Shown here: positions 26,961 through 62,809 of the stretch, piece after piece
How the letters are laid out: each line of letters starts with the position of its first letter
Position numbering within the stretch: position 1 is the first letter of the stretch
NCBI GenBank assembly: GCA_048938005.1
Contig: JBHLMQ010000010.1
Coordinates: 40,482-104,481 of the forward strand
DNA from: Promethearchaeota archaeon
GTDB lineage: Archaea; Asgardarchaeota; Lokiarchaeia; Sigyniarchaeales; SOKP01
Reading direction: 5' to 3'
DNA: 64,000 nucleotides
Position numbers and translations under genes: made by a program
The notes under the pieces: model-generated
Told to the model about the DNA's origin: nothing
What the model saw: the letters and a program-made list of their open reading frames with translations, nothing else
Databases searched by the model: none

Positions 26961-27010
26961 ATAATATGTCACTCCCCAATTCTTTTTAATTATTAATCCA
27001 TTATATTATT

Positions 27011-27580: not shown

Positions 27581-27746
27581 TTCAATTGAAAATATTATTA
27601 TATTTTATAAGTAACAGTAAAAATGAGCCATACAATATTAATTCTGATATAGGTTGAGAAATTTTTTTGTTATTATAGTTTTAATAATTAATGTTATTAA
27701 AAAATGAAAAAAAAAATAGATTTGAAAATTAATTTATTGAATTTTT

Positions 27747-27959: not shown

Positions 27960-28265
27960 TTTTTTACATTCCTCCACTTTTTAATTTTTTTTAATAAGTT
28001 CGTAAAGTCCATATTTTTTAACATGAACTTTATTAATTAATAATATTTTATTCAAATATTTAAAACTTGCGTAAAATTATCGATAGAGTATGTTTCGGTT
28101 AATAATTTCATCCTATCGACAAAATTGCGATGTCTGAAAAGAAAAGCGGCAGATATGGTTCTGAGCTTTTAGATCTGAGATTTTTTTTAATTTTAAATAT
28201 GTTAACTAAAGAAAATCAAATTGTTGATCTATTTAACTCATTTTATAAATTGAACAAATTTCTCT

Positions 28266-31517: not shown

Positions 31518-31629
31518 GACTTTTTCTACCTATGAAAAAAATTATGAATTGATCTTTTTCTTATCAATATTATATTTATTATAGAGATTTTTATTATTAT
31601 TGATTATTAATCTTTGTGTAAAGTCAAAA

Positions 31630-47675: not shown

Positions 47676-49304
47676 TTAATAATAAGATTTATGAAGTCTT
47701 TTATAAACAGTTTTCCCTCTTATTATTGTTTCAAGAACTTGAATATTTCTAATCTCATTAATGCTTATTTCAAGTGGATTTTTATCCAATATTATCAAAT
47801 CTGCAAGTTTTCCGACTTTTATACTCCCCTTAATCTTTTCTTCAAATGCAGCATAAGCAGCATTAATTGTATAGGACTTAAGCGCTTCTTTCATACTTAT
47901 ACACTCCTTAGGAATGAAACCGTTTCTATTAACAAGAGCATGAAGCCCTAAAATAGGATTAGGATCTTCAACGGGACAATCTGATCCTGATGCAAGAACA
48001 ACTCCACCATCAATGATGGATTTCATGGGATAAGTATATTTACAACGCTCTTTACCTAATCTCTTTTCTAACCAAGTGTATTCTGAATTAATAAATGGTG
48101 GTTGACATGAGGCAATTATTCCATTATTTTTCATATCTTTTATAACATCCTTAGTCAACATCGAAGCATGTTCCACTCGGTGTCGATGATTTTCTCTTGG
48201 ATATTCTTTTAAAAGTTTTTTATACAAATCTATGCAAATTCTATTGCCTCTATCTCCAATAGCATGAATAGCGATTTGAAATCCATTATTGTGAGCTACT
48301 TTCATTTTTTCATAAATTTTATCTTCATCAATCACACAAAATCCGCATGAATCGGGAGCATCAGAAAAAGGTTCATACATACATGCAGTTTTTGCTCCAA
48401 ACGTACCATCAAGGAATAACTTTAAGCTACCAATTTTAAATTTACTATCTTCTTTACCACCATCTAGAGGGGGTTTCTTTAATTTCATAAGTTTCTCTGG
48501 TTTGTCAGTAGAAATAAGTGCGTACCAATTTTGCAGTATTTTATCTTGAATTGATTTATAAATTGGTATCTCAATTACTCCTAAATCCCCTCCTTTTCCT
48601 CCTTTACCAAATTGAAGATTTCCATGAATAGATGTAATTCCATTTTTCGCGAACATTTTAAAAGCTTTAATAGCAGTTTCTTGAATTACTTCGGATTTGG
48701 GAATTAAAAATTTATAGATCTTTGGAAGTAATTGGTCTAAAGCATTTTCAGATATTACTCCAGTTAATTTCCCTTCCTTATCTTTTCTGATTTCAGCCCC
48801 TTCAGGAACGATTGTTTCAGAGTTGATGCCTAATAATTCTAATGCTTTCGAGTTAGCAATACCTATATGACCGTCGTATCTTATGATAAATACTGGATTA
48901 TCAGGGCAGGCTTTATCTAATTCCCAACGATTAGGCAATATTGGAACATCAAATTCTTCTTCTTTTAACTTTAATCCAAATATAAATTCTCCCATATCTT
49001 TTTTTTTCGCAGCTTCTCTCAAAATATCTTGAAGTTCTATTAAGCTTTTGACAGAAGAAAGATTAAGATTCAATAATAAGAACATAAATGTAATTGGATG
49101 CATATGGCAATCTATGAAACCAGGAAGAATTGTGTTATCTTTCAAATCTATCAGTTTGAAATCATTACCCATTTCGTTTTTAATATCTTCGAAATTTCCT
49201 ACGGCAATAATTTTTTCACCCTGAATTCCGATAGCTTCAACAAGCGGCTGTTCCTCATCCATAGTGATAATAGGACCATTAAAATAAATTTTTCTTTCAA
49301 CCAT
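47676..49304 (-). CDS. amidohydrolase 3 family (YtcJ-like)
   Basis: NGPIITMD, PGFIDCHMH, KLFLDG, HAIGD, HRVEHA, GSDCPV, YTINAAYA, GKLADL. Confidence 0.9.
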   Translation of the reverse strand: MVERKIYFNGPIITMDEEQPLVEAIGIQGEKIIAVGNFEDIKNEMGNDFKLIDLKDNTILPGFIDCHMHPITFMFLLLNLNLSSVKSLIELQDILREAAKKKDMGEFIFGLKLKEEEFDVPILPNRWELDKACPDNPVFIIRYDGHIGIANSKALELLGINSETIVPEGAEIRKDKEGKLTGVISENALDQLLPKIYKFLIPKSEVIQETAIKAFKMFAKNGITSIHGNLQFGKGGKGGDLGVIEIPIYKSIQDKILQNWYALISTDKPEKLMKLKKPPLDGGKEDSKFKIGSLKLFLDGTFGAKTACMYEPFSDAPDSCGFCVIDEDKIYEKMKVAHNNGFQIAIHAIGDRGNRICIDLYKKLLKEYPRENHRHRVEHASMLTKDVIKDMKNNGIIASCQPPFINSEYTWLEKRLGKERCKYTYPMKSIIDGGVVLASGSDCPVEDPNPILGLHALVNRNGFIPKECISMKEALKSYTINAAYAAFEEKIKGSIKVGKLADLIILDKNPLEISINEIRNIQVLETIIRGKTVYKRLHKSYY

Positions 49305-49309
49305 TTTTG

Positions 49310-49888
49310 CTATTTTCTCCTTAGTTTTAATTGTATTTCTCGTGTATCAGCATACTGATTAAGAAATGTTTTAAGAATCTTTGATTTTGATTTAAAATCT
49401 TTTCGATCAATTCCCTCTTCTTTAATTTGTTCCTTACTTTTAATTAAAGATTCTTCTAAACCCTCAATTGGAAGTAAAGCAGTAGCAATGCAAAAGAAAC
49501 TCTTAGATCTGCCCTCATTAAAGTTTTCTAACATATTCTCAAGAATTTCCATCCTTTCATTTTGCTGAGTTTTAAAATTTTCAATACCTACTTCTTTTAT
49601 TAATCTCAAGTTCAAAAGTGATACTTGATGAGATATAAAGGAGTCATATTTATCCCATTTATCTATTTTAGAACATGGAAATTCTGTGCACTCAGCACAT
49701 GTCTCAAAGCTATGTGTTTTTACGCAACATGTAATTATTGAACATGATGGATGCTTATTATAAAAGTTAGGACCACAACAACCAGGACATCTTGAAGGTC
49801 CTTTAGTATAATAAACTGGACATAACCCACAATCTAATCCACAGCAAGCGATGGTGGGATTCTTCTTTTCTGGATATTCTCGAGTCAT
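49310..49888 (-). CDS. DUF3795-type Cys-rich protein
   Basis: ACCGLDCGLCP, CPGC, CSIITCC, TCAECTEFPC. Confidence 0.8.
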   Translation of the reverse strand: MTREYPEKKNPTIACCGLDCGLCPVYYTKGPSRCPGCCGPNFYNKHPSCSIITCCVKTHSFETCAECTEFPCSKIDKWDKYDSFISHQVSLLNLRLIKEVGIENFKTQQNERMEILENMLENFNEGRSKSFFCIATALLPIEGLEESLIKSKEQIKEEGIDRKDFKSKSKILKTFLNQYADTREIQLKLRRK

Positions 49889-50021
49889 TATTAACTGTTA
49901 TAATTGTAGAATTTGATACTTATTACATAGATTTTAAGAAATAAAAAGGTTATAAGAAAAGTATTAAAAATATGAAATAATTCTTAGGATTAATCAATAG
50001 GGAAAAATGTGAAATTTTAAA

Positions 50022-52364
50022 ATGAAAGCATCGATTTTAAAAAAATTAAATCTAATAATTGAAGAAGCTAACGCTTTTAAAGATAAAAATAATTTTCAAA
50101 AAGCAATTAGAAAGTTTCAAGAAGCATTAGATTTTATTAATTTAAAGGTTAAAGAAGAAGAAGATAAAAATATTGAAATTGAAAACATAAAAAATGCAAT
50201 TAATCAAACTTATTCAGTTCAGGCTGATAACGTAATTCAAGGAGCGATACATTTAACAGCCCAAAAAAAATTTAAGAAAGCTACAGAGCAATTTATGGAA
50301 GCACTTAAGTTAGTTGAAAATATTGATGAGCCTGGTCTCAAACTTGCTGAAAGTGATGAAATTAATAAATTAATTAGCGAGAATGAAATAGAACAATTAA
50401 TAACAAATGCCATTGAGTTGAAGTCTAAAAATCAATTAGATGAAGCTGTAGAAATGTTTAAAACAGGATTACGTATCGCAAAGGAAATTTATGAGTCAGA
50501 ATTTAGAAATGAAGCTTTATTAAGAATTAAAAACGAAATTGATGAAATATATGATTGCCAAATTGATGAAATGGTAGAAAAAGGTAAAAATTATAAAAAA
50601 AATGGACAGGATGATGAAGCTATTAAAACCTTTGAAAAAGCATTGCAATCTATTGAAAAATTCTTTGATCCCGAAGCTAAGAAAACACAAATTAATATTA
50701 TTAAAAACTTAAACAATGAAATCTATTCTAATCAAATCAAACCTTTAGTTGAGAAAGGAAAAGATTTAATCAAACAAAATTTAACAGATCAAGCGATTTC
50801 TGAGCTCAATAATGCAGTAACTTTAATAAATAAGATGTTTGATTCTGAACTCAAAGATCTTGAGATAAGCCTTATTGCTGAAACGTTAAACCCAATTTAT
50901 ATTGAAAGAATTAAACCATTAGTAGTTGAGGGAAAACAGATAACTACCCTAGAAAAATTTGAAGAGTCAATAAATTCAATTAATAAAGCAGTTGATTTCT
51001 TCCAACAAGCTTTGGATATTGCCAATAAAATGGTAAGATCAGAAAGAAAAGAAATACAAATCAAAGAAATTAGTGAATTAATTAATAATTCTTGTATTTC
51101 AGGAATAAATGTGATAAAAGACAAATCAATTCAGAATATAGTCCAAAAAAAATATGATGATGCTGTGAGCGATTTGTATATTGCTTTAAGTTTAGCTAAA
51201 AGAATGGTATATCCAGAAGAAGAAAATCCAGAATTAGAAAATCTCAAAAATCTAGTTAACAAGGTTTATTCTGCTGAAGTTACTGAAGTTATTAATAAGG
51301 GAAATAAATTGGTCGAAGAAAAAGATTATGATAAAGCAATAGAAACTTACAATGAAGCATTAACGATGACAAATAAAATGTACTTAACTGATGAAATGGA
51401 AAAAGAAGTTAACATGATTAAAGGTTTAATTTATGAAACGGAAGTGAAACAATTAGTAGTAAAAGGAGAATTACTTGAACAGCAAAAACTAAAAGAAAAA
51501 GAAATTGAAAAACTCAAAAAAAGATTAGATTATGCTCAATCAATAGATGATCCAGAACGACGAGCTGCTGAAATGGCAAAAATCAAGAAATTAATTGATG
51601 ATGTTCATTCAGATGAGATAAAGTTATTAATTGAACAAGGAAACCAACTTGCTGATTTAAAGAAGTATGATGATGCGTTCAAATTTTATGAAAGAGCTTT
51701 AAAAGTTAATAATATGATGGAAGAACCAGATGTAAAAAATAAAGATTTAATAAAGAGCTCCTATAAGAAAGAACTTATTAATCGGGCAAAACTAGAGATT
51801 GAAAATAAAAATTATGATAATGCCATTGAAAACTGTAGAAGGGCTTTAGATTTAGATGAAATATTTGTTGATGGATATTACCATATTGGGTTAGCATATA
51901 ATTACAAAAAGAAATATGACGCAGCAATAGAAAACTTTCAAAAAGCTGTTAATTTTGACGAAAAACATATTAAATCATGGAATTCTATGGGCTTAGCATA
52001 TGAAGCAAAAGAGGATTATGATAATGCTCTTCGATATTTAAATAAAGCAATAGAGATTGACCCTGAATTTCTCGATAGTTGGTATAATATTGGAAATTTA
52101 TATAAACTAAGAAAAGAATACGATAAAGCGATTGAGAGCTATAAAAAAGCAACTGAAGTAAACCCTGAATTCGCAGTAGCCTGGTTCTTTATGGGAAATG
52201 CATATTTTGATAAAAAAGATTATAATAACGCAGTTCAAAGTATTGAAAAAGCTATTAAAATTGATCCTAATCTAGGCCAAGATGTAAATCCTCTTATAAA
52301 AGATTTCAAAAAATCGATCGAAAAACTCTATGAAACACTTTCAATGCATTTTATTAATAGATAA
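50022..52364 (+). CDS. long tetratricopeptide-repeat protein
   Basis: Helical repeats throughout; canonical TPRs at C-terminus (WNSMGLAY, WYNIGNLY, AIEIDP). Confidence 0.88.
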   Translation: MKASILKKLNLIIEEANAFKDKNNFQKAIRKFQEALDFINLKVKEEEDKNIEIENIKNAINQTYSVQADNVIQGAIHLTAQKKFKKATEQFMEALKLVENIDEPGLKLAESDEINKLISENEIEQLITNAIELKSKNQLDEAVEMFKTGLRIAKEIYESEFRNEALLRIKNEIDEIYDCQIDEMVEKGKNYKKNGQDDEAIKTFEKALQSIEKFFDPEAKKTQINIIKNLNNEIYSNQIKPLVEKGKDLIKQNLTDQAISELNNAVTLINKMFDSELKDLEISLIAETLNPIYIERIKPLVVEGKQITTLEKFEESINSINKAVDFFQQALDIANKMVRSERKEIQIKEISELINNSCISGINVIKDKSIQNIVQKKYDDAVSDLYIALSLAKRMVYPEEENPELENLKNLVNKVYSAEVTEVINKGNKLVEEKDYDKAIETYNEALTMTNKMYLTDEMEKEVNMIKGLIYETEVKQLVVKGELLEQQKLKEKEIEKLKKRLDYAQSIDDPERRAAEMAKIKKLIDDVHSDEIKLLIEQGNQLADLKKYDDAFKFYERALKVNNMMEEPDVKNKDLIKSSYKKELINRAKLEIENKNYDNAIENCRRALDLDEIFVDGYYHIGLAYNYKKKYDAAIENFQKAVNFDEKHIKSWNSMGLAYEAKEDYDNALRYLNKAIEIDPEFLDSWYNIGNLYKLRKEYDKAIESYKKATEVNPEFAVAWFFMGNAYFDKKDYNNAVQSIEKAIKIDPNLGQDVNPLIKDFKKSIEKLYETLSMHFINR

Positions 52365-52423
52365 TCCTTCTCTTACTGTGTTTACAAAAAAAAATTAGTA
52401 AAAATTAGAAAAAGAAAAAAACG

Positions 52424-54037
52424 TTATTCGATTTTATTTAAGTGTTTTAAACCCATAAAGAATAAAGGAAGAGATATCACAAGATGTATGGAGATGAATA
52501 TTAGCGTAGGGCTCAATTCCCAAGCAACTAGGTCAGGAAAAATATCCCCCATCCATACCATCAAGAAGATAAAGCCCATAAACACGCCCATTTGGATACT
52601 CACTAGCTTAAATATATTCATTCCCATATGTTTTCCCTTTTCTTCAAATGCCGGGCTAAATCCTTGTAATCCAATCGCTTCAATCAGTACAATTATTCCA
52701 TATGCTAAATAAGCGATGAAGAACACCACCATATAAACCATATCAAACTCAAATAGGATTGTAAAGAATATGGTCACTCCCAGAGCTAATATTATATTAA
52801 TAATAAACATCGCAAGAATATAGGAATAGACCAAACCATTCACGTTTCTTGGACTCCTTTTATATACCCATAGCAAGTCTTTACTACCTACAAAGATGAA
52901 ACTACCAATCATTATGCCATAAATCATGCCTCCTATGAAAACTACCATTAACCTTGTAAATCCAATCGATAGAAACTCACCTGGAGCTTCACTCATAGAA
53001 AATGAGAAGATTAAGCCATAAACACAAGTCATACCAGCCAAAAAAACTAACTTAGCGAGATTTTGCTTTTTTCGGAAAAACTCTTTGAACTGAGTAATTA
53101 CTAATCCCTCCCATTTTACACCAATAATCCGTCTATTGAATTTATAAAAAGCATTCTCTTTCTCTATAATTGAACTGACCTTTTCAACACCCCCTTCAAG
53201 TGTATAGAAGTTTTCTGCTTTTTTATAAGAAACATATAAGATCAATAAAGGTACAAAAATTACTAGCGCTAAACTCATCCATATATTTAAGATATAGGGG
53301 TTTAATAATGTGGCATCAAAAGTATAGAGTATAACATTAGAGAACCATAGAGGTGGATACCAAATAAGATAATTTTTGAGTTCTGGATTCTCCATTATGA
53401 ATTGGAACCCAAATTGTAAACCATAAATAAGTGCAACCATTCCAATTGAAAGGAATATCAATAATGTTTTAGCAATGTCTCGTGCTTTTTCACTCTTAGC
53501 AATCTTGTGTTCCAACCAACTCATTATTACGGTACCAATTAAGGTTGCCAGAAATACAAGACCAAATACGCATCCATAAATTACTAGGGTTTGTAAAAAC
53601 GTCAAGTTAAAAATTGGATTCAACATATTTACTAAGATCGGGGTGAGAGCAAATACATAAGAAAAAAGTATAGGTATCTTTCCTAAAAATTCTCCCAAAA
53701 AGATATCTGCTGCGGTGATTGGGGATGCTAATAGGATTTCTTTAAATTCTACCTCACTCTGACGATATATGTTGTTTAGAGGATAAAGCATAACCATAAG
53801 AAAAAAGATCATCATCAACTGTTCAATAATCATTGCAATAGCGGGAATTAAAAATGAAGAGATCTCCTCCATACCAGCTAAAGTTGGCATAAATTGATCA
53901 AAAATTAACGGACAAAGAAAAAACGCCCAGAAGAGTAGAAAAGAATATAAAATCAAGAAAAATGCTAACCGATTTTTGCGAAATTTGGAGGTTCTAACCC
54001 TCACTTCATTCTTAGCAATCTTTAACCATAAAGAAAT
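52424..54037 (-). CDS. ABC exporter permease (multi-TM, internally duplicated)
   Basis: Many TM helices, EILLASP...IFLGEF, LWVYKRSP; downstream of ABC ATPase; frame open to ATT at 54037 (ORF track starts at 54004). Confidence 0.8.
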   Translation of the reverse strand: MSLWLKIAKNEVRVRTSKFRKNRLAFFLILYSFLLFWAFFLCPLIFDQFMPTLAGMEEISSFLIPAIAMIIEQLMMIFFLMVMLYPLNNIYRQSEVEFKEILLASPITAADIFLGEFLGKIPILFSYVFALTPILVNMLNPIFNLTFLQTLVIYGCVFGLVFLATLIGTVIMSWLEHKIAKSEKARDIAKTLLIFLSIGMVALIYGLQFGFQFIMENPELKNYLIWYPPLWFSNVILYTFDATLLNPYILNIWMSLALVIFVPLLILYVSYKKAENFYTLEGGVEKVSSIIEKENAFYKFNRRIIGVKWEGLVITQFKEFFRKKQNLAKLVFLAGMTCVYGLIFSFSMSEAPGEFLSIGFTRLMVVFIGGMIYGIMIGSFIFVGSKDLLWVYKRSPRNVNGLVYSYILAMFIINIILALGVTIFFTILFEFDMVYMVVFFIAYLAYGIIVLIEAIGLQGFSPAFEEKGKHMGMNIFKLVSIQMGVFMGFIFLMVWMGDIFPDLVAWELSPTLIFISIHLVISLPLFFMGLKHLNKIE

Positions 54038-54043
54038 GTTACA

Positions 54044-54859
54044 TCACTTCTTTTTCTTTTTTTCTTTCTTATTGAGATTTTCACCATTTGGGCCATTTTC
54101 GCGCCAGGATAATAAGTCCTCTATATGAGTTGCACCCATAATCTTAAGATATGCGTCCTCCAAATCTCTTGCATTTTGAGATTCTATAATTTCTCTAGGG
54201 CTACCTTGTAATTCCAATATTCCTTTATTGATAATTCCTATAATGTCACAGAGTTCTTCAGCCGCATCAAGCAGATGAGTACATATAAAAATTGTCTTAT
54301 CTGCTTTCTTAGCCAAATCAGAAATAAGGTTCTTAACCATTCTTGCTGCTGCAGGATCTAAATTAGACGTAGGCTCATCCAGAAAAATGATCTTGGGATC
54401 CTGAATTAATGCTGCACACAAACATACTTTTTGCTTCATACCACGAGAATATCCTTCAAGTAAGTCGTTTTCCCGCCCCTCAAGATCGAATATATCAAGA
54501 AGCTCATCAATACGACTAGATATGGTTGCTTTCGGTAAATAATACAGCTCGCTAATGAATTCCAAGAACTCTTTCGCAGTTAATTTTGAATATAATCCAG
54601 GAGATTCCGGTAGAAATCCACAGATCATCTTCACATCATTAGTTTGGGTGAGAATATTATACCCCCCTACTAATGCTGTACCATTTGACGGGGAAATAAT
54701 AGCATTTAACATCCTGACGGTTGTAGTTTTACCTGCTCCATTTGGCCCTAATAAACCATAGGTAGTACCATATGCGATCTCAATATTTAAGTCTCGTACG
54801 GCTACAATATCACCAAAAATCTTTGTGAGATCTTTGGTTGCTATTGCCAATTTTTCCAT
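54044..54859 (-). CDS. ABC transporter ATP-binding protein (export type)
   Basis: GPNGAGKTT, YSRGMKQK, FLDEPT, CTH; start at MEKL after GGAAGTGA. Confidence 0.92.
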   Translation of the reverse strand: MEKLAIATKDLTKIFGDIVAVRDLNIEIAYGTTYGLLGPNGAGKTTTVRMLNAIISPSNGTALVGGYNILTQTNDVKMICGFLPESPGLYSKLTAKEFLEFISELYYLPKATISSRIDELLDIFDLEGRENDLLEGYSRGMKQKVCLCAALIQDPKIIFLDEPTSNLDPAAARMVKNLISDLAKKADKTIFICTHLLDAAEELCDIIGIINKGILELQGSPREIIESQNARDLEDAYLKIMGATHIEDLLSWRENGPNGENLNKKEKKKKK

Positions 54860-54911
54860 TCTGTTTTTTTCACTTCCAAATTTTTTATTATGGGTTTTTT
54901 TTTTTAGATTT

Positions 54912-55331
54912 TTAATTTTCAGCTTCTTTCTCAAATAGATCCTCAAACTCCATTCCTAATCCCATTGCAATTTTAACTAATAAACTATCGTTAAAACTTG
55001 AGGTTAGCTCTTTGTCATCTATTTCGCTCAAAGAAGCTAGTTTTTCGAGGTTGATATCAGCCATTTCAGCAACCTCTCTTAAGTCTGCTAATGATTTGCC
55101 CTCTAAGATATCTTTAATTATTGGTTCCTGATAAAAAATCTCATCTATTGGTTTTTTCAAGATTTCCGATATTTTAAAAGATATCGTCAAGGATGGATTA
55201 TATGAACCCCGCTCTAAGTAGTATATTGTCTGGCGAGAAACCCCTACAAGCTTAGCTAATTCTAACTGAGGCAAGTCTAATTCCTCCCTGAATTGCTTTA
55301 TCCTTGAAACAATTTTTTTCTTAAATTTCAA
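54912..55331 (-). CDS. XRE-family HTH regulator with a second degenerate HTH
   Basis: ELAKLVGVSRQTIYYLERGSYNPSL; second unit LREVAEMADIN...KIAMGLGMEFEDLF. Confidence 0.85.
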   Translation of the reverse strand: MKFKKKIVSRIKQFREELDLPQLELAKLVGVSRQTIYYLERGSYNPSLTISFKISEILKKPIDEIFYQEPIIKDILEGKSLADLREVAEMADINLEKLASLSEIDDKELTSSFNDSLLVKIAMGLGMEFEDLFEKEAEN

Positions 55332-55402
55332 CCATTCTCACCATTCTTTTACTCTTTTTGGAGTCGAAATAATCTTAATAATAATAAAAAAAATGTTGAA
55401 TT

Positions 55403-56230
55403 TTATACCAATTTAAATAAATCTTCTATTTTACACTCTAGTACTTCCGCAATTCTATACGCCAACGCTAAACTTGGGTTATATCGGCCTTCTTCTAAAT
55501 AATTTATGGTTTGAATTGGGACTCCCACTTTTTCAGCTAATTTAGCAACGGTCATATTAGCATTTTCTCTTTTCTCTTTTATCGTTGTTTTTAAATATTC
55601 TCCTTCTCGCATTTTCGAAAGGATATAACTAATAAAGTTATCAAAAGCTAATTCTTCGGGTTTGAAAATTTTATCCTCTAAACCACTTGGTATTGCCGAA
55701 TACTTGATTAATCCTTCTTTTATCTTCTCCTCTATAATATTGGGGTCTAATAATCCTGGAATATAACCTTCTGGGCGACCAATACCTCCTTTACCACCTC
55801 CTGCTGCCGCTGTAGAACCTGCAGTCTCAACTTTAACAGTATAAGTTTTAAACATTCTATCAAAGACTCCATTAGTAATATTTATGTTCTGAATTCTGCT
55901 ATGTGGTATTGTAGCTCTGATTCTATTAAAAACACCGTGTTGGATAACAATATCACTCTCTAATACTTCATATGAAAACATATTTACATATCGATAAAAA
56001 TACCAAATTGTGAACAATAAAACAACTATAAATGGGATCACCACAGAATAAAAGAGTATCCATAAAATCCAGTCAAATTGAACTATTCCATCAAAAATGT
56101 ACATCAACCAAAATGTCAAAACCATCCAAATAGCATAAAACAAAATATACCCAATAATAGTTTTTAAAATTTGTTTCTTAGCATAATTACGAGAAATGGT
56201 TCCCTTGTATGATAGATCGTGTTTGCTCAT
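55403..56230 (-). CDS. 2-TM bacterial PH-domain (YdbS-like) protein fused to C-terminal XRE HTH
   Basis: Two TMs, GVFNRIRATIPHSRIQNI...VETAG...IPGL, then LAEKVGVPIQTINYLEEGRYNPSL. Confidence 0.82.
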   Translation of the reverse strand: MSKHDLSYKGTISRNYAKKQILKTIIGYILFYAIWMVLTFWLMYIFDGIVQFDWILWILFYSVVIPFIVVLLFTIWYFYRYVNMFSYEVLESDIVIQHGVFNRIRATIPHSRIQNINITNGVFDRMFKTYTVKVETAGSTAAAGGGKGGIGRPEGYIPGLLDPNIIEEKIKEGLIKYSAIPSGLEDKIFKPEELAFDNFISYILSKMREGEYLKTTIKEKRENANMTVAKLAEKVGVPIQTINYLEEGRYNPSLALAYRIAEVLECKIEDLFKLV

Positions 56231-56267
56231 TTTATTTACCCTCCATTTTTATTTTATTTTTAATTTA

Positions 56268-56359
56268 TGTAAACTTTATTTATACCAAGATTTTGATATA
56301 TTAAATCTTGAGACATAATTTTTTGAAAATTTATATATTTATGTAATAATTATTTACAT
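56268..56359. promoter_or_regulatory. two TGTAAA-N5-TTTACA-like inverted repeats around the TATA-like element of the XRE/ABC operon
   Basis: TGTAAACTTTATTTATA (56268-56284) and ATGTAATAATTATTTACAT (56341-56359). Confidence 0.55.
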
Positions 56360-56540
56360 TCATATTTAAATTTTTCTATAATTTTTTTGAAAATAGGTTA
56401 AGATGAGGTCTTTCCATATTTTGATCAATGTTAAGTAAAGTTTACAGAAGAAATAATTAAATATCAATATATTTTTTTTGGTAAAAATAAAAAAAAGAGA
56501 GATATCTTCTTCAATAATTGATTATTTCTTCAATCGTAAT

Positions 56541-56661
56541 ATTGAAAGAGGAATCAAAATTGAACTGACTCTAGGGCAAGAAGTTAATCCACTTATTAAA
56601 GACTTGAAGAAACTTAGAAAACCTTAAAGAATCTCTTTCGATGTTTTTTATTAATAAATGA
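56541..56661 (+). pseudogene. displaced, frameshifted copy of the TPR gene 3' end
   Basis: IERGIKIELTLGQEVNPLIKDLKK / LKESLSMFFINK* versus TPR IEKAIKIDPNLGQDVNPLIKDFKK...LYETLSMHFINR* (52242-52364). Confidence 0.85.
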
Positions 56662-56680
56662 AAATTTAAAAAAAAAAGGA

Positions 56681-57976
56681 TTAAATTTTATTTGACTTTC
56701 TTTTAAAGTTTATAATAGAAATTATTGAAATGATACTAATTACCATTAAGAAGAAGTATATTTCATATCCAGGAATAACAGTAGGGTTTTCATGCCATAA
56801 TATAATTGATACACTAGCGCTGTTATAATTTGCTGTAGCAATATCATTATATCCATCATTGTTTGCATCTCCTATATAAATACCAAAGGGTTCATCTTCA
56901 ACATAAATAGTTATCTCATTTTCCCAATTTCCAACTACGTCATTCCAGAGAAAAATGGAAACAGTATCTGAATCAAAATTTGCACAAACTATATCATTTA
57001 AGTTATCATTGTTTACATCTTCAACGATTACATCTATTGGTGTTTCGTCTGGGTAAATCGGTGTATCACCTATACTTAATGTAATTCTATCATTCCAATA
57101 ACTAGCTGTATCATTCCAGAGCAATATAGAGAGTGTATCTTGAAATCCATTACAAGCAATGATATCATTTTTACCATCATTATTTACATCTTCAACAACT
57201 ACATCAAATAAATTGTCCCCAGCATTGAGAATAAATTGGGTATCCCAATCTTTTAAATTGTTATTCCATACATCCACAGTAATGTTAAAATCAATCACAT
57301 ATACACTTGTCGAAATTATATCATTAAACCCATCATTATTTGCATCACCTAAATAAATCTCCTCAGGTTCCCCTCCTGTTGGATGTATTATTGGTGTATC
57401 CCAATCTCCAGAGGAATCATTCCAAGCCATTATTGAAAACGCATTAGCAACTGATGTTAGAATATCATTGTATCCATCGGCATTAGCATCTCCTATTGAA
57501 ATGTCATAAGGGAATGCACCACCTGCAGATTTAAATATTGCTCCATCCCAATCACTACTAGTATCATTCCAAAGGAAAATTCTATTATCTGGTATTACAA
57601 TGTCATTAAAGCCATCATTATTAGCATCACCTACGAAAAATCTCTGTATAAAGCCTTCAGCATCTAAATATATCACATCCCAATCACTTGAAGGAGCATT
57701 CCATAAGAGAATTGTTATATTATTATCATTTTCGTTATTTGTTATAATTTCATTTAATCCATCATTATTTACGTCTTCAATAAAAATATCTGTTGGAGCA
57801 CCTATAATTGATTTGTTTATTACCGAACCCCATGTACCAGCACTTAATCTTAAATTTCCTTTGTATATAGGTGAATAATCTTGAGAATTGGTCACTGTCT
57901 CAAAAGAAATAAATGGGACTAATGCAATTATACAAAAGAAAATCAAAAAGAATTTTATTTTACTTATTTTTTTCAT
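56681..57976 (-). CDS. secreted FG-GAP/VCBS repeat protein with Loki-CTERM-like anchor
   Basis: Seven D[AV]N[NA]DxxN[DE]I repeats, signal peptide, IPGY-TM-basic tail. Confidence 0.88.
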   Translation of the reverse strand: MKKISKIKFFLIFFCIIALVPFISFETVTNSQDYSPIYKGNLRLSAGTWGSVINKSIIGAPTDIFIEDVNNDGLNEIITNNENDNNITILLWNAPSSDWDVIYLDAEGFIQRFFVGDANNDGFNDIVIPDNRIFLWNDTSSDWDGAIFKSAGGAFPYDISIGDANADGYNDILTSVANAFSIMAWNDSSGDWDTPIIHPTGGEPEEIYLGDANNDGFNDIISTSVYVIDFNITVDVWNNNLKDWDTQFILNAGDNLFDVVVEDVNNDGKNDIIACNGFQDTLSILLWNDTASYWNDRITLSIGDTPIYPDETPIDVIVEDVNNDNLNDIVCANFDSDTVSIFLWNDVVGNWENEITIYVEDEPFGIYIGDANNDGYNDIATANYNSASVSIILWHENPTVIPGYEIYFFLMVISIISIISIINFKRKSNKI

Positions 57977-58298
57977 TTTAAATTCGCCTAATTAGTTTAT
58001 CTTAACTGAATTCTAAAATAATTCAATTGTTATTATAGATGATGGTCTTCTTTATATAAATTACGCTTTTATCCAAAATTTAATAAAATTATATATTGTG
58101 TATTTTATTAGTAATAGTATTTTACAACTCTGTCAATTGTACAAATGTGTCCAACTACTTCCTCAATAACAAAATTACACATCTTTTTTAGAATTTAAGT
58201 CTCCTTATCAAAAGTTATTAAATTTTATTAATTAAAATTATAGCAAAAGTAAAGTTTCAGAAGAAATAAACCTATTTTATCTATAGGTAATTAATTTT

Positions 58299-59462
58299 TC
58301 AACTTTTTCCGAATCGTGCTTTTTTTCTCAATTCTCTTTCTTTACGTTTGGTTCTCATTGCTAGATTACCTTCATAATACTCCTTCAATGTTTTAGGAGG
58401 TGTGAACTGTTGTTCTTTTTTCAGTAGTTCTATAGCTTCAGAGGGACAAATAGTAATACAATTTCTGCAACCAATACATCTTAGTCTATTAACAGAAGAA
58501 ATATCATCATCAAGAGTAATTGCCTCCATTTGGCAACGTTCTATACATGTACCACATCCAGTGCATAAATCAGGGTCAATTTTAGCATAATAATTCGTAG
58601 ATATAATATCTCCTGGATTAGGAAATGTTTTTATACTTAATATTACCTCACAGCAGCAACCACAACAGCTACAGATAAAATCAGTTTTTTGCGAATTCCC
58701 TATTTGAAACACTAATCCTTCTTCTTCATTTTTTTTCAATGTTTCGATTGCTAATTCCCTACTAATTTCACGAGCCCATCCCATATCGATATACATTTGA
58801 GCTAGGTGACCAAATCCAATACAAACATCTAATCTAGAAGTAGCTTTACAAGTTTTTCCTAAAATATTCATTGATTGACGGCATACGCAATTAGTTAATG
58901 AGAATGGCCCTTCCGCCTTCTCAAGAAGGTTTTTAACATCATCAAAATATGCAACTTCAATATCATGATCAATAGTAACTCCTACTGGAATTGTGCGTAA
59001 TTGAAGTGGAAGGTTTTTTGCCATGTCCAAAATAAGAGCTTCTTGCATATACTGTTTCATATCTTTAGTAAACTCTTTAGTCAATTTGTTTACCTGAAAC
59101 TCAAACATTCCAATTATGAGTATTGCTCCACTATAAAACTTCTTATTCCCCATCTTCCTTAACTTAATCGCTCCTTTTTCTGCCATAGTATCAAGATGAT
59201 TCTCCAATTCTTCTTTTATATATTTTAATCCTAACGTTTTGAAGCGCTCAAAAATGCTATCTAGAGATTCACCATCTCCAAATGATGGGTAAAATCTTAA
59301 ATTTGATGCAATTTGCGCTTCCTCAGGAGTAAAAAGCAATTTTAATAAACGTATTTCTACCCCAGACTCGGTTGAGGGAAACCCAACTGGGAATGTATCA
59401 AGATGTTCCTGCAATTCTCGATAAACATCTTGAGACGTACTATTTGTCTCTTGTTTTGACAT
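58299..59462 (-). CDS. 4Fe-4S dicluster domain protein
   Basis: CVCRQ, ICSCCGCCC, CTGCGTCIERCQ and CIGCRNCITICP ferredoxin motifs. Confidence 0.85.
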   Translation of the reverse strand: MSKQETNSTSQDVYRELQEHLDTFPVGFPSTESGVEIRLLKLLFTPEEAQIASNLRFYPSFGDGESLDSIFERFKTLGLKYIKEELENHLDTMAEKGAIKLRKMGNKKFYSGAILIIGMFEFQVNKLTKEFTKDMKQYMQEALILDMAKNLPLQLRTIPVGVTIDHDIEVAYFDDVKNLLEKAEGPFSLTNCVCRQSMNILGKTCKATSRLDVCIGFGHLAQMYIDMGWAREISRELAIETLKKNEEEGLVFQIGNSQKTDFICSCCGCCCEVILSIKTFPNPGDIISTNYYAKIDPDLCTGCGTCIERCQMEAITLDDDISSVNRLRCIGCRNCITICPSEAIELLKKEQQFTPPKTLKEYYEGNLAMRTKRKERELRKKARFGKS

Positions 59463-59621
59463 TCTTTAATGTCTTCGATAAGTATAAATTAAATTAATAT
59501 TCGTGTTTCTTATTTAATAGTCTATTTCTAAATTTTGTTCATTTCTATTTCAATTCCAATATAAATCTTTTGATTTCATTTCTAACATTTTTCAATATTT
59601 TTTAGAACAATATAATATTTT

Positions 59622-59710
59622 GCCAAGATGTAAATCCTTTTACAAAAGATATCAAAAATTCGAGCAAAAAACTCCATGAAATACTTTCAATGCATTTTAT
59701 AAATAGATAG
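59622..59710 (+). pseudogene. second displaced copy of the TPR gene 3' end
   Basis: Ungapped alignment to 52276-52364, 79/89 identical by hand count, including the stop codon position. Confidence 0.9.
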
Positions 59711-59953
59711 TCAATTTCTAATAATTTATTACAATTTCGGGAGTAATAGGATATTTATAAATTAATGATATCTTAAAGATAAAAATTGAATTATAATTAT
59801 TTTTTAAAATTTTTTTAATGTAGACTCCACCTATAAATAAACTTCAGATTTTATAATTGAGATTCATCCAAAGTTGAATAAATCTTAAATAGACAGTTAT
59901 GTATATTTTTTATTATTACATTTTTGTAATATTAAAATAATAAGGGAAATTCA

Positions 59954-60961
59954 ATGAAAAAAATAAAAAATTTAATATTGTTTTTAATAATATTGATAAT
60001 GGTTCTCAATACCCCTTATGTATTATATTCTAGCAGGAGTCAATCTGAATTTGATTGTAATGAGAATTCACAAGAAAAAAATGTAAAAGGTGCTTACTAT
60101 ACGCCCGTTTCACCAATAACAATAAATGGTAACAGTGGTTGGAACACTGCTGCGCTAACAGAACCTTGGTGTTCTGGTTCAGGAACTTGGAATGATCCAT
60201 ATATTATTGAAGATATTTCAGTTGATGGTTTAAATACTAGCACTTGCATTTCAATTTCAGATTCAACTGTATATTTCATAATCAGAGACTCTTTATGTAC
60301 TAATGCAGGTAGGGAACTACCTTCTGAACGTGGTGGGATAGAATTATATAATGTTAAAAATGGAGCTTTAATCAATAATGATTGTTCAAATGATAATTCC
60401 AGGGGTATTAAAATAATTAACTGCAATAACATTACTATCCTAAATAATCAAGCAAATAATAATAAATGGAGTGGAATTAGTGTTGGAGGAAGCACTAATA
60501 ACAAAGTTTCGGGTAATACTGCGAGGAATAATCATGATGGAATATATCTATCCGGTTCCTCAATTAAAAATCTTGTTGATAATAATGTTGTGAGATCTAA
60601 TAGCTACAGAGGAATAAGACTTACTAATTCTAATAATAACACAATTTTTAAAAATAAAGCATCAGAATCTGATAGTGGAATAGATTTAACCACTTCTCAT
60701 TTTAATAATATATCAGAAAATACATTAAGTTATAACACAATATATGGCGTATCTCTGCTTTATTCTAATAATAACACAATTTTTAAAAACACTTTCAAAT
60801 GTAATAAAAAGGACATTGATGAATTTTCCTCTAGTGGAAACATTATTGAAGAAAATATTTATGAACCATGTGCAATACCTGGCTTCGATTTGTATATCAT
60901 GATTGGCATATTGGGCATTATATCGATTATTATTGGTAAAAAATTAAAAAAATTTAAATGA
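59954..60961 (+). CDS. secreted NosD-type beta-helix protein with Loki-CTERM-like anchor
   Basis: WCSGSGTWNDPYIIE, GIxL..S.NN repeats, IPGF-TM-basic tail. Confidence 0.88.
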   Translation: MKKIKNLILFLIILIMVLNTPYVLYSSRSQSEFDCNENSQEKNVKGAYYTPVSPITINGNSGWNTAALTEPWCSGSGTWNDPYIIEDISVDGLNTSTCISISDSTVYFIIRDSLCTNAGRELPSERGGIELYNVKNGALINNDCSNDNSRGIKIINCNNITILNNQANNNKWSGISVGGSTNNKVSGNTARNNHDGIYLSGSSIKNLVDNNVVRSNSYRGIRLTNSNNNTIFKNKASESDSGIDLTTSHFNNISENTLSYNTIYGVSLLYSNNNTIFKNTFKCNKKDIDEFSSSGNIIEENIYEPCAIPGFDLYIMIGILGIISIIIGKKLKKFK

Positions 60962-61372
60962 AGAGAGTTTTGAAAGAAAATCACGATTTCATAAAAGAGA
61001 AATGGATAAAAAGGGATTAAAGATCTTCGTTAAAAATGGGATTTTATCTTCATCATAAGGTAAAATTCTGAACAATCTTAAAAATTTCTTTTTCTTTTTT
61101 TTAAGTCTTTTGTTTTCGGATAAAAAGTGTTCAGTAATATTAGGAATTCTATAAGATTTGTTCATTTTCTTTAATATTTTTATGATTTTTTATCGCCTTC
61201 TTTTTTGTCGTTTCATAATTTACATAAGTGGGAAAATGAGGGGAAAGTTTAAATAGTTAAAATAAATATTATAATTAATACATAATAAATAATTGATAAT
61301 TCGTTCAGATAATTAAAAATTAATCTGGAGGTTTGTTCAAAAAAAAATTGGAAATTTTTTTGGTGGTAATAA

Positions 61373-61561
61373 ATGCAAAAATTTACTTGCGGAGTCAAAC
61401 ATAATTTCGATTCTGGAGTTATAATTGATAGTGATGATCGAAAGAAATATGAGTGGAATTGTAGTACTTGTGAATTGCAAGGAAAAACAATAACAAAAGA
61501 AGAACTCAAGGTTTTCAAGGCCAGTGGAAGGGTTAATTGTCCACTTTTAACCTACGAATAA
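61373..61561 (+). CDS. small Cys/His-containing hypothetical protein
   Basis: 62 aa, GGTGG upstream, C..H, CxxC, C. Confidence 0.55.
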   Translation: MQKFTCGVKHNFDSGVIIDSDDRKKYEWNCSTCELQGKTITKEELKVFKASGRVNCPLLTYE

Positions 61562-61693
61562 GAAATTCTATTTGTGATTATATTTTTTTTATTTTCTTTT
61601 TTTTAATCATTGAGTAGTTAAATTAAAAAGCCTTTTCTAAATTATTTCACTAAAGATTTTTATAGATATTAGTTAATAATTAAGTGAAATAAT

Positions 61694-62797
61694 TTGTCAA
61701 GTCCTAATGAACGTTATAGAATTGATAATTTTTATGCGAAATCTTTAGAAAATAATCCATTGAATAGTCCTGTGGATAGAGATATTAATATATATTTACC
61801 GCCCGGATATTTCGAAGATAATAGTAAAAAGTTTCCTATTATCTATCTTCTTCATGGTTATTCTTTAAACAATAGAATGTGGACAATTACATGGGAAGAT
61901 GATGAAAATAAATTCTTGAATTTCAATGTTTTACCACCAAATATTATAGAGAAAATAGATCTAGAAAATTTGTTATCTTTTGAAAAATTTGACGATTTAA
62001 TCGAAAGTGGCAATTTAAATCCTTTTATTTTGGTTCAACCGGACGCAAGTCTCCATTTACCTCAAATAAGCGGTCGAAAGGACTTAAGAAATATACCCTT
62101 TAAAAAAGGCAGCTATTACGTTAATTCTACTTTCTCGGGTAATTATATGGATTATATTATTTATGATGTTATTGATTATGTAGATAATCATTATCGAACA
62201 ATACCAGACAAAGCCCATAGAGCTTTAATAGGAGCATCTATGGGAGGGTATGGGGCATTATATCTATGTGTATATCATCCTGAAAAATTTAATTCTGTTG
62301 TAGCATTAAGTCCAGCTAACATAAGAGGTATTAATTCAATTGATTGGAAATTAAGAGTACCCTTGTATAAAGAGATTTTTGGAACTGAGATGAGCAATAA
62401 ACTAGGAGATATGGCATGGGCAGATATTTTAGATACTCATGATTTAGTTCTATCAAAAAATAATCTCTTAATACCATCAATTAAACGAGATAATGATGGA
62501 AGCATAATAGATTATAATAAAGAAGCAGAAAATAACTGGAGAAAGTTTGATATCAATGATTTAATCAGACAAAATTCTGATGCACTTAAAGAGCTCCATA
62601 TTTTATTTAATTGCGAGAAAACTGATGAATTTGGTCTTACGGGGGCGTCAGAACGCCTTCATGAGACATTATCAGAATTGAATATTCAACATGAATATGA
62701 AATTTATACTGAGCCCAAAGCAGCGTTATCTCCTCATATAATGGGGATAGGCTCAAAAATAATGGATGGGATACGGTTTTGTCTCAAATACTTTTAA
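61694..62797 (+). CDS. alpha/beta hydrolase, putative esterase family
   Basis: IYLPPGY, IYLLHG, YVDNHYRTI, GASMGGYGA, terminal His. Confidence 0.85.
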   Translation: MSSPNERYRIDNFYAKSLENNPLNSPVDRDINIYLPPGYFEDNSKKFPIIYLLHGYSLNNRMWTITWEDDENKFLNFNVLPPNIIEKIDLENLLSFEKFDDLIESGNLNPFILVQPDASLHLPQISGRKDLRNIPFKKGSYYVNSTFSGNYMDYIIYDVIDYVDNHYRTIPDKAHRALIGASMGGYGALYLCVYHPEKFNSVVALSPANIRGINSIDWKLRVPLYKEIFGTEMSNKLGDMAWADILDTHDLVLSKNNLLIPSIKRDNDGSIIDYNKEAENNWRKFDINDLIRQNSDALKELHILFNCEKTDEFGLTGASERLHETLSELNIQHEYEIYTEPKAALSPHIMGIGSKIMDGIRFCLKYF

Positions 62798-62809
62798 AAA
62801 GAAAGCAGC

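What the first reader, a model, noticed from the sequence alone, without database searches (positions are those of the whole stretch)
52242..59710. Gene-capture hotspot: TPR gene 3' end repeated twice, bracketing cargo blocks
Seen: the last ~30-40 codons of the TPR gene recur at 56541-56661 (diverged, frameshifted) and at 59622-59710 (79/89 identical). Between the copies lie self-contained minus-strand blocks: [PH-XRE, XRE, ABC ATPase, permease] and [4Fe-4S protein, FG-GAP surface protein]. Established: single-crossover integration of a circle carrying a gene's 3' end restores the gene and displaces the old end downstream, as in phage integration into E. coli icd. Inference: serial integration of cassettes at this site with no integrase inside the cargo, i.e. 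a possible integrase-free or trans-acting gene-acquisition mechanism.
Basis: partly seen in the sequence, partly recalled or inferred. Interest (0 to 1): 0.75.

Follow-up and report, generated by a model that had tools for sequence, protein, structure and literature searches.

The report
Recombination scars in a gene-swap hotspot
Two leftover copies of a gene's tail mark where extra gene blocks were spliced into a spot that differs between related archaeal genomes, most likely by ordinary recombination and not by a dedicated integration enzyme.

Summary
The last 122 and 89 coding bases of the TPR gene (50022-52364) recur at 56538-56661 (75%, frameshifted) and 59622-59719 (79/89 identical), and nowhere else in the genome.

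The stretch between TPR and a conserved convergent gene (62810-63853) is hypervariable in this genus, which looks like an Asgard archaeon. It spans 17 bp to 10.5 kb, with at least 17 gene arrangements in 43 loci from 42 relatives. No integrase or transposase was found in any of them.

The icd-like reading fails on four counts:
- No relative carries a second TPR end (0 of 43 loci).
- The two copies start 33 nt apart.
- The same locus also holds short 3'-end scraps of other genes: Fer4 (16 nt) and an arginase-family gene (35 nt) here, and Fer4, XRE and orf347 scraps in seven relatives.
- The assembly has one tyrosine recombinase, on another contig.

The window's locus reads as a stack of pieces from about four alleles of the same locus. 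Each piece keeps a stub of its former neighbour.

Best explanation: one-sided homologous recombination plus an illegitimate join (homology-facilitated illegitimate recombination or unequal crossover), filtered by selection. Junctions could not be checked in reads.

About ten other loci in this genome show 36-281-nt direct repeats around inserted genes.

The parts
47676..49888 (-). Conserved left flank: amidohydrolase (47676-49304) and DUF3795 protein (49310-49888)
   Evidence: Pfam; found next to TPR in relatives
50022..52364 (+). TPR protein gene (780 aa), the conserved left border of the variable stretch
   Evidence: Pfam; ortholog in 44 of 53 other genomes of the genus; its sequence is a mosaic of nearest relatives
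52242..52373 (+). Copy A: the functional TPR 3' end, to which B and C are homologous
52424..56230 (-). Block 1: 526-aa polytopic membrane protein, ABC ATPase, XRE regulator, bPH_2+XRE regulator
   Evidence: Pfam; hydrophobic segments; the same four genes follow TPR in at least 13 relatives
56522..56537 (-). 16-nt stub of a Fer4 gene's 3' end (stop plus 4 codons), left over from an arrangement block1|Fer4
   Evidence: it matches the Fer4 ends of G020 and G008; the alignment to G020 is contiguous across the insertion
56538..56661 (+). Copy B: decayed, frameshifted TPR 3' end. It is the left end of the unit that carries FG-GAP
   Evidence: B plus the FG-GAP 3' part is colinear with G018's TPR end plus FG-GAP (75% over 673 nt)
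56681..57976 (-). FG-GAP repeat surface protein with N-terminal signal-like and C-terminal anchor-like segments
   Evidence: Pfam
58235..58269 (+). 35-nt stub of an arginase-family gene's 3' end, left over from an arrangement arginase|Fer4 as seen in G004
   Evidence: 84-86% to G009's arginase-family gene end; Pfam of that gene
58299..59462 (-). 387-aa protein with a C-terminal 2x[4Fe-4S] domain
   Evidence: Pfam; 84% nt identity to G010 over 58324-59620
59609..59620 (+). Left copy of an imperfect 12-nt direct repeat that flanks the C+NosD unit
   Evidence: G010 aligns to both copies with a 10-nt overlap
59622..59719 (+). Copy C: TPR 3' end remnant. It is the left end of the unit that carries NosD
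   Evidence: 8 non-synonymous against 1 synonymous difference from A, counted by hand from the alignment
59954..60961 (+). NosD/beta-helix surface protein
   Evidence: Pfam; the closest ortholog (58% aa, G056) is not next to a TPR gene
61148..61159 (+). Right copy of the imperfect 12-nt direct repeat
61373..61561 (+). Conserved 62-aa Cys-rich ORF, usually next to orf347 in relatives
61694..62797 (+). Esterase gene, a further insertion between the small ORF and orf347 with no repeat at its borders
   Evidence: Pfam
62810..63853 (-). orf347 (no Pfam family), the conserved right border, convergent with TPR
   Evidence: it lies 17 bp from TPR in G013

Best explanation
The stretch between the convergent genes TPR and orf347 is a mobility-gene-free hotspot. 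Related genomes carry different alleles of it, that is, different gene sets. The window's 10.5-kb version is a stack of pieces from about four such alleles. The source contexts are TPR|block1|Fer4, TPR|FG-GAP, arginase|Fer4|small ORF, and TPR|NosD|small ORF. Each join was made when DNA from a relative paired by homology on one side and was joined without homology on the other side. This is homology-facilitated illegitimate recombination, or equivalently an unequal crossover between two alleles. Every incoming piece therefore kept a short stub of its former neighbour, and B and C are two such stubs. The stubs are gene 3' ends because genes at these borders meet tail to tail or tail to head with short spacers. 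They are short because a longer TPR tail would have paired with the resident TPR and given a clean replacement, and because long repeats are lost again by recombination. Shown: the structure, the breakpoints, the variation among relatives, and the absence of integrases. Inferred: the enzymatic route, the order of events and the way DNA entered the cell.
For: (1) Hotspot: the TPR-to-orf347 distance is 17 bp to 10,452 bp in the 23 loci that hold both genes. At least 17 arrangements occur among 43 loci from 42 relatives. (2) Clean insertions relative to kin: G020 is contiguous (its positions 8658/8657) across window 56536-58313. G010 is contiguous, with a 10-nt overlap, across 59621-61149. Each inserted unit begins with a TPR stub. 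(3) Stubs of other genes sit at junctions. In the window: Fer4 16 nt and arginase-family 35 nt. In relatives: G011 Fer4 103 nt, G016 Fer4 83 nt, G047 XRE 56 nt, G042 XRE 84 nt plus 77 nt of its own ORF, G058 orf347 51 nt, G057 and G043 90 nt of another ORF. All the stubs come from genes that occupy this same locus in some genome. (4) Source contexts exist in kin: TPR end+FG-GAP in G018, arginase|Fer4 in G004, block1|Fer4 in G020, G008, G054, G001 and G010. (5) No mobility enzyme: none in 58 of 70 cargo-cluster representatives or in the window ORFs. The whole assembly has 1 tyrosine recombinase (contig C11), 0 serine recombinases, 0 DDE_Tnp_1 and 1 TnpB-like gene. (6) Homologous exchange is frequent here. 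Along TPR and block 1 the nearest relative switches at least six times (G060, G022, G047, G009/G006, G047/G065, G022/G011, G010), with leads of 3-8%. (7) C groups with A (88.8%, next best 76%) and carries most of the derived changes, as a neutral remnant would. B has no clear kin. (8) At another locus of this genome, C74, an insertion junction lies in a 14-nt microhomology. (9) The model has precedent: displaced effector 3' ends in T6SS arrays were ascribed to the same process (PMC5361080, passages read).
Against: Microhomology at the three junctions in the window is only 0-2 nt, so the illegitimate join is inferred from structure alone. Two independent events both broke the donor within the last 122 nt of a 2.3-kb gene. 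That needs the 'short tail' argument, which is untested. No relative shows the context TPR|NosD (0 of 43 loci). Trees of TPR and orf347 from 22 genomes are largely congruent, with one clear conflict (G003), so exchange across the whole locus is not rampant (quick trees). [quoted passage not shown] Two other loci of this genome (C44, C74) have a repeat-cargo-repeat layout that this process does not produce in one step. The contig comes from a metagenome bin (7% contamination), and the junctions could not be checked in reads.
Confidence: 0.58

Rival explanations
1. Campbell-type integration. A fragment cut from another allele (TPR tail plus cargo) closed into a circle. It then entered the resident TPR tail by one homologous crossover made by the host recombinase, with no integrase. 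This duplicates the tail.
For: It gives the same end product as seen. The differing 5' borders of B and C fit random circle ends. Repeat-cargo-repeat loci with 200-281-nt repeats elsewhere in the genome (C44, C74) are what such integration yields. At C44 the two repeat copies have different nearest relatives (G060/G019 against G022).
Against: It needs a crossover within 89-122 nt of diverged homology. It does not explain the 16-nt Fer4 and 35-nt arginase stubs any better than a linear join does.
Confidence: 0.15
2. Site-specific integration as at E. coli icd. Elements carrying a copy of the TPR tail were inserted by a tyrosine integrase that was later lost or that acts in trans.
For: The layout (intact gene, cargo, displaced old tail) is the classic signature (icd, e14 and phage 21 are recalled, no paper was read). 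One tyrosine recombinase exists in the assembly.
Against: No integrase in the window or in 43 related loci. B and C begin 33 nt apart. 0 of 43 relatives' loci hold a displaced TPR tail. Stubs of four other genes occur at junctions. No shared motif was found among 11 repeat pairs of this genome beyond A/T runs. The age order of B and C is the reverse of serial insertion.
Confidence: 0.06
3. Two steps in place. A short tandem duplication spanning gene ends created a neutral landing pad, or a whole cassette was duplicated with short flanks. Later insertion or allelic replacement then filled it.
For: C is the sister of A among 45 TPR ends, as expected for a duplication within this lineage. The repeat-cargo-repeat layout at C44 and C74, where both repeat copies have the empty-site order, fits a duplicated target.
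Against: It needs more events than a single unequal join. B is not close to A (75%), and B+FG-GAP is colinear with another species' arrangement. At C44 the remnant is closer to G022 (88%) than to its own partner (82%), although later gene conversion could mimic this.
Confidence: 0.1
4. Artefact or decay: a mis-assembly of co-occurring strains, or the last traces of full-length tandem TPR paralogs.
For: The genome is a bin of 101 contigs with 7.2% contamination.
Against: A graph assembler needs shared words to join sequences, and the junctions (a Fer4 stub next to TPR position -122, and so on) exist in no simple allele. B and C differ from A by 25% and 11%, so they are not strain copies of A. 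Sequence directly upstream of B and C is homologous to relatives' intergenic DNA right up to the junction, which leaves no room for a decayed TPR body. No relative has tandem TPR genes at this locus. Twelve runs from three studies hold 59-95% of the sampled words of 51800-61700.
Confidence: 0.05

Closest known systems
Mobility-gene-free hotspots and 'minimal mobile elements' (Neisseria), turned over by homologous recombination in the flanking core genes
   Same: Two conserved flanking genes, different whole-gene cassettes in different genomes, no integrase or transposase, and signs of homologous exchange in and near the flanks. Definition read in PMC3082526. General pattern read in PMC5635113 (abstract and passages).
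   Different: Those were described within bacterial species, many of them naturally transformable. This case lies between species of an Asgard-like archaeal genus. Clean double crossovers leave no scars. This locus is additive and keeps stubs of former neighbours.
Homology-facilitated illegitimate recombination and the 'sequential displacement' arrays of T6SS effector-immunity modules, and C-terminal displacement in Rhs
   Same: One homologous anchor plus an illegitimate join. The new module is added and the old 3' end is shifted downstream. Successive events build arrays, and events are rare next to clean replacement (PMC5361080, passages).
   Different: In those systems the displaced ends encode variable toxin domains followed by immunity genes on the same strand. 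Here the TPR C-terminus is conserved and the cargo is unrelated, mostly opposite-strand genes. The experimental papers (de Vries and Wackernagel 2002; Prudhomme 2002; Meier and Wackernagel 2003) were seen only as references, and their content is recalled.
Integration of phage 21 and e14 into E. coli icd (site-specific, restores the gene's 3' end)
   Same: An intact gene followed by cargo and a displaced, decaying copy of the gene's tail.
   Different: There is no integrase, no common crossover point and no recurrence in relatives. Stubs of several different genes are present. The icd case is recalled; no paper was read.
Additive flexible genomic islands, and tycheposon-type islands with arrays of partial tRNA repeats
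   Same: Cassettes accumulate side by side at one spot, separated by partial copies of the target.
   Different: Those rely on tRNA or att targets and tyrosine recombinases. The window has no tRNA and no recombinase. PMC4033161 and bioRxiv 2020.12.28.424599 were seen only as search listings.

Membership tests
icd-type site-specific integrative element | A tyrosine or serine integrase in or beside the element | tested here: not met
   No recombinase family in window ORFs or in 58 cargo representatives from related loci. The only PF00589 hit of the assembly is on contig C11, and there are 0 PF00239 hits.
icd-type site-specific integrative element | A common crossover core, so displaced copies start at the same target position | tested here: not met
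   B starts at TPR position -122 and C at -89.
icd-type site-specific integrative element | The gene's 3' end is restored and the old end is displaced downstream of the cargo | tested here: met
icd-type site-specific integrative element | The same att duplication recurs wherever cargo sits at the site | tested here: not met
   0 of 43 loci from 42 relatives hold a second TPR end at E<0.01. In 9 of those loci the contig ends within 3 kb.
Integron | IntI integrase with attI, and cassettes ending in attC hairpins, all in one orientation and mostly without promoters | tested here: not met
   No integrase. Cargo lies on both strands with upstream regions of 200-490 nt. attC folding was not tested.
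Minimal mobile element / MGE-free hotspot | Two conserved flanking genes with different whole-gene cassettes between them in different genomes | tested here: met
   TPR and orf347 both present in 22 related loci. At least 17 arrangements.
Minimal mobile element / MGE-free hotspot | No mobility genes in the cassettes | tested here: met
Minimal mobile element / MGE-free hotspot | Incorporation by homologous recombination in the flanks | tested here: inconclusive
   The mosaic of nearest relatives along TPR and block 1 supports it. Flank trees are mostly congruent, with one conflict.
Homology-facilitated illegitimate recombination | One end joined by homology, the other at a short microhomology | tested here: inconclusive
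   Geometry fits, but visible microhomology at the three window junctions is 0-2 nt. A 14-nt microhomology is seen only at locus C74.
Homology-facilitated illegitimate recombination | Uptake of linear foreign DNA (transformation or conjugation) | not testable with these tools
   Nothing in the sequence tells how DNA entered.
Polymorphic-toxin orphan arrays (Rhs, CDI, T6SS) | Displaced 3' ends encode variable toxin domains, each followed by an immunity gene | tested here: not met
   The TPR C-terminus is conserved across the 21 aligned ends. Cargo is transporters, regulators and surface proteins.

The most novel reading that the evidence does not exclude
This Asgard-like lineage may have a general, integrase-independent way of adding genes that duplicates 36-281 nt of the target, so that both neighbouring genes stay intact. 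One possible route is joining of ends from different chromosome copies, or an unknown trans-acting activity. On this reading the TPR-end copies are one instance of a genome-wide process. Eighteen genes have intergenic same-strand copies of their 3' ends within 15 kb, against 8 for 5' ends and 4 for mid-gene controls. Two loci have exact empty sites in relatives. One 2.6-kb cargo is present at two loci, each with its own local repeats.
Probability: 0.15. Interest if true: 0.8.

Novelty: new member of a known kind. Interest (0 to 1): 0.45.

Why it matters
How Asgard archaea gain and stack genes bears on how their large, accessory-rich genomes arose. This locus gives a dated, breakpoint-level record of additive gene gain without mobile-element enzymes. 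It suggests that recombination between diverged alleles, with imprecise joins, is enough to build multi-gene islands. The scars (stubs of former neighbours) can also be used as a tracer. They reveal which allele each cassette came from, and they can be searched for genome-wide.

Tried and rejected
- Metagenome contigs with the TPR protein: 7 loci at 56-80% identity, mostly short. None is conspecific and none helped.
- NosD context: the closest ortholog (G056, 58% aa) is not beside TPR, so the donor context of C+NosD was not found.
- Rfam and tRNA scans found nothing in 49000-64000 or in the window. The copies are not known RNAs or tRNA-derived att sites.
- A shared motif among 11 repeat pairs of the genome: nothing beyond A/T runs.
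- Aloposons of Heimdallarchaea are tRNA-site elements with giant genes and are unrelated (PMC8813620, passages).
- Empty-site tests for loci C63 and C23 were uninformative because the host genes are not conserved in the 24 genomes drawn.
- Flank-tree incongruence as proof of recombination gave only one conflict.
- Earlier notes of this scan: nothing relevant.
- Searches of the paper library listed no paper on such scars in Asgard genomes. These were narrow searches and do not prove absence.


Full report
**Observation**

The TPR gene occupies 50022-52364 on the plus strand (Pfam). Its 3' end recurs twice downstream.
- Copy C (59622-59719) matches 52276-52373 at 87% over 98 nt without gaps. That is 79 of 89 coding positions, and homology runs 9 nt beyond the stop codon.
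- Copy B (56538-56661) matches 52242-52364 at about 75% and has a 2-nt deletion that breaks the frame.

A profile built from 21 TPR ends scores B at E=2.5e-21 and C at E=4.3e-14. In the whole 3.72-Mb assembly the 132-nt query finds only itself and C, and all other hits have E>=0.12. A second genome-wide blastn also finds B, at E=8.9e-16.

**The organism**

The window encodes Ras/Roc/Arf-type GTPases, an LSM protein, and RING, Kelch and BBS7-like propeller proteins. Neighbouring genes in relatives include Rad51-family, TFIIB zinc-ribbon and TrmB proteins. G+C is 29.8%. From recalled knowledge, this content points to an Asgard archaeon. The assembly is a bin of 101 contigs, 95% complete with 7% contamination. 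The genus holds 53 other species genomes in the collection.

**The locus in relatives**

I fetched the locus from 44 relatives. In total, 43 loci from 42 genomes include a TPR 3' end.
- The conserved frame is amidohydrolase, DUF3795, TPR (plus strand), then a variable stretch, usually a 62-aa Cys-rich ORF, then orf347 (minus strand).
- In G013, TPR and orf347 are 17 bp apart. The window has the longest stretch, 10,452 bp.
- At least 17 arrangements occur. Examples are nothing, the small ORF only, FG-GAP only (G018), an acyltransferase, an M29 peptidase, arginase+Fer4 (G004), the XRE pair only, block 1 alone, block 1 then Fer4 (G020, G008, G054, G001, G010), and Fer4 then block 1 (G011, G007).

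The site is therefore a real hotspot and the cargo is not invariant.

**No mobility enzymes**

- Pfam scans of the window's ORFs gave no integrase, transposase or resolvase.
- The same holds for 58 of the 70 cargo-cluster representatives. The 12 left out were nine genes of the unlinked G056 contig, one TPR fragment and two window ORFs; of those two, the esterase was scanned and the 89-aa frame 61249-61518, which overlaps the small ORF, was not scanned.
- The whole assembly has one PF00589 gene on contig C11, no PF00239, no PF01609 and one TnpB-like gene. Bins can lose repeated elements, so this is a soft argument.

**Test of the icd-like model**

It predicts displaced TPR ends wherever cargo sits, a common start point for the displaced copies, and increasing age with distance from TPR. 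None of these holds.
- No relative has a second TPR end: 0 of 43 loci at E<0.01. In 9 of these loci the contig ends within 3 kb.
- B starts at TPR position -122 and C at -89.
- C, the farthest copy, is 88.8% identical to A. It is A's closest relative among 45 TPR ends (next best 76%), and the two share the ending SMHFINR, which none of the 20 relatives' ends printed has.
- Eight of the nine coding differences between A and C change the amino acid, mostly on C's side, as expected for a neutral remnant (my count).
- B is only about 75% identical to anything.

**Breakpoints**

- Against G020, the window is contiguous up to 56535 and resumes at 58314, while G020's own coordinates are adjacent.
- Against G010, the window is contiguous up to 59620 and resumes at 61150, with a 10-nt overlap.

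Relative to the widespread arrangement TPR|block 1|Fer4|small ORF, the window thus has two insertions, [B+FG-GAP...] and [C+NosD...]. It also has a clean 1.2-kb esterase insertion with no repeats.

Three further details matter.
- Directly left of B lies a 16-nt stub that matches the stop codon and last four codons of Fer4 in G020 and G008. The Fer4 end is therefore duplicated as well.
- Twenty-nine bases before the stop codon of the real Fer4 lies a 35-nt stub of an arginase-family gene's 3' end. Arginase and Fer4 are convergent neighbours in G004.
- The C+NosD unit is flanked by an imperfect 12-nt repeat (59609-59620 and 61148-61159).

B plus the FG-GAP 3' part is colinear with G018's TPR end plus FG-GAP (75% over 673 nt).

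The locus therefore reads as pieces of about four alleles. Each piece was cut a few to about 120 nt outside its cargo.

**The same kind of scar in relatives**

A search of all intergenic DNA of the loci against all their ORFs found short stubs at cargo junctions in seven relatives.
- G011: Fer4, 103 nt, beside a full Fer4.
- G016: Fer4, 83 nt.
- G047: XRE, 56 nt, between TPR and block 1.
- G042: XRE, 84 nt, plus 77 nt of one of its own ORFs.
- G058: orf347, 51 nt, lying 4.5 kb from the real gene.
- G057 and G043: 90 nt of another ORF.

Every stub comes from a gene that sits at this locus in some genome. The bias towards 3' ends follows from geometry. Borders here are tail-to-tail or tail-to-head with spacers of 17-100 nt, while 5' ends are buffered by 200-500 nt of upstream DNA.

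**Homologous exchange**

Along TPR and block 1 the nearest relative changes at least six times, with leads of 3-8%. This shows frequent homologous exchange between species in tracts of about 0.4-1.5 kb. Quick trees of TPR and orf347 from 22 genomes agree on the main clades, and G003 is misplaced. I therefore do not claim wholesale reshuffling.

**Mechanism**

The most economical reading is that DNA from a relative with a different allele paired with the resident chromosome on one side (Fer4, or the small-ORF region). Its other end was joined without homology close to the edge of the paired region. This is homology-facilitated illegitimate recombination or, put differently, an unequal crossover between two alleles.

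This reading explains four features:
- the additive outcome;
- stubs from whichever gene was the former neighbour;
- the rarity of scars next to clean replacements;
- the short stub length, because a longer TPR tail would pair with the resident TPR and give a clean swap, and long repeats are unstable.

The model was proposed for displaced effector ends in Vibrio T6SS arrays and for Rhs (PMC5361080). Hotspots without mobility genes, maintained by recombination in the flanks, are well described in bacteria (PMC5635113; PMC3082526).

The weak points are these:
- visible microhomology at the three junctions is only 0-2 nt;
- no donor with the context TPR|NosD was found;
- the process has not been shown in archaea;
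- the junctions are not read-verified.

Block 1 next to TPR is the common state of the clade. I therefore favour insertion of the B and C units into a G010-like backbone over serial insertion next to TPR. Both orders give the same structure, and I cannot exclude the second.

**Beyond the window**

A genome-wide scan looked for intergenic, same-strand copies of gene segments within 15 kb. It found them for the 3' ends of 18 genes, the 5' ends of 8 genes and mid-gene controls of 4 genes.

After setting aside tandem paralogs, about ten loci show direct repeats of 36-281 nt at 80-92% identity around 0.5-4 kb of cargo. The cargo is surface proteins and an MFS transporter, with no mobility genes.

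- Locus C44: the 20 relatives I fetched and aligned, and about 25 by coordinates, have an empty site with a single 200-nt target. The alignments to the window's genome end exactly at the repeat borders. The remnant of the left gene is closer to G022 (88%) than to its own partner (82%), and that partner is closest to G060 and G019 (92%).
- Locus C74: relatives are empty. The 2.6-kb cargo is 93% identical to a second copy on contig C60 that abuts another remnant, and one junction lies in a 14-nt microhomology.

In these two loci both repeat copies have the empty-site order. A single one-sided join does not produce that. Campbell-type entry of a circle, joining of ends from different chromosome copies, or a prior tandem duplication would. 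Two further loci were uninformative. This wider pattern is the basis of the more novel reading, to which I give about 15%.

**Verdict**

The repeats are real and they mark additive joining of cassettes at a real hotspot that has no integrases. A dedicated icd-like or trans-acting integration system is unlikely. The structure is best explained by general recombination with imprecise joins. It is a new instance, in an Asgard-like archaeal genus, of a known kind of hotspot and scar.

Noticed in passing
G000 contig C44:33054-35535 (outside the window; locus L109): A 2.1-kb insertion carrying one 437-aa beta-propeller-like secreted protein sits between two convergent genes. It is flanked by a 200-nt direct repeat (83% identical) made of both genes' 3' ends. 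At least 20 relatives have the empty site, and the two repeat copies have different nearest relatives.
   Followed up: partly
G000 contigs C74:6282-9547 and C60:11430-15730 (loci L108 and part of C60): The same 2.6-kb cargo (an 831/833-aa protein with phage-tail-collar and fn3 hits) occurs at two loci at 93% identity. Each copy sits beside local direct repeats (281 nt and 107 nt). The left junction at C74 lies in a 14-nt microhomology.
   Followed up: partly
G000 contigs C12, C23, C24, C28, C4, C60 (47762-47972), C63: Further gene, cargo, 3'-end-remnant layouts with repeats of 36-223 nt at 80-92% identity. Seven loci with duplicated 5' ends were also listed.
   Followed up: partly
Relatives' loci: L025 (G011), L027 (G016), L077 (G047), L076 (G042), L087 (G058), L092 (G057), L094 (G043): Short (51-103 nt) stubs of Fer4, XRE, orf347 and other ORF 3' ends lie at cargo junctions of the same hotspot.
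   Followed up: partly
window 29958-33216: Two tandem ~520-aa proteins with Ras/Roc/Arf GTPase domains. Nearby are LSM (20824-21105), RING (33372-33989), Kelch (36009-37205) and BBS7-like propeller (11173-12843) proteins. This content is typical of Asgard archaea (recalled).
   Followed up: no
window 26403-28832: Three neighbouring GNAT acetyltransferase genes, two of them equal in length (189 aa). They look like a local paralog cluster.
   Followed up: no
window 60627-60654 and 60762-60789: A perfect 28-nt direct repeat, 135 nt apart, inside the NosD/beta-helix gene. It is probably a recent internal duplication of a helix turn.
   Followed up: no
window 61373-61561: A 62-aa Cys-rich ORF with no Pfam family is conserved beside orf347 in most relatives (42-89% aa). 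It is likely a real small zinc-ribbon-like protein.
   Followed up: partly
L082 and L083 (G065 contigs C107 and C113): One relative's bin holds two TPR loci with different cargo (73% and 69% aa identity to the window's TPR). This is either two populations in one bin (9% contamination) or a duplicated locus.
   Followed up: no
L023 (G022:C1, complete genome): The TPR ortholog there lacks its first ~258 codons and has different upstream genes. The amidohydrolase/DUF3795 flank lies elsewhere in that genome, which points to a rearrangement at the left border.
   Followed up: no
window 56681-57976 and 59954-60961: Both surface-protein cargo genes end in a hydrophobic segment followed by basic residues, like archaeal C-terminal membrane anchors.
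   Followed up: no
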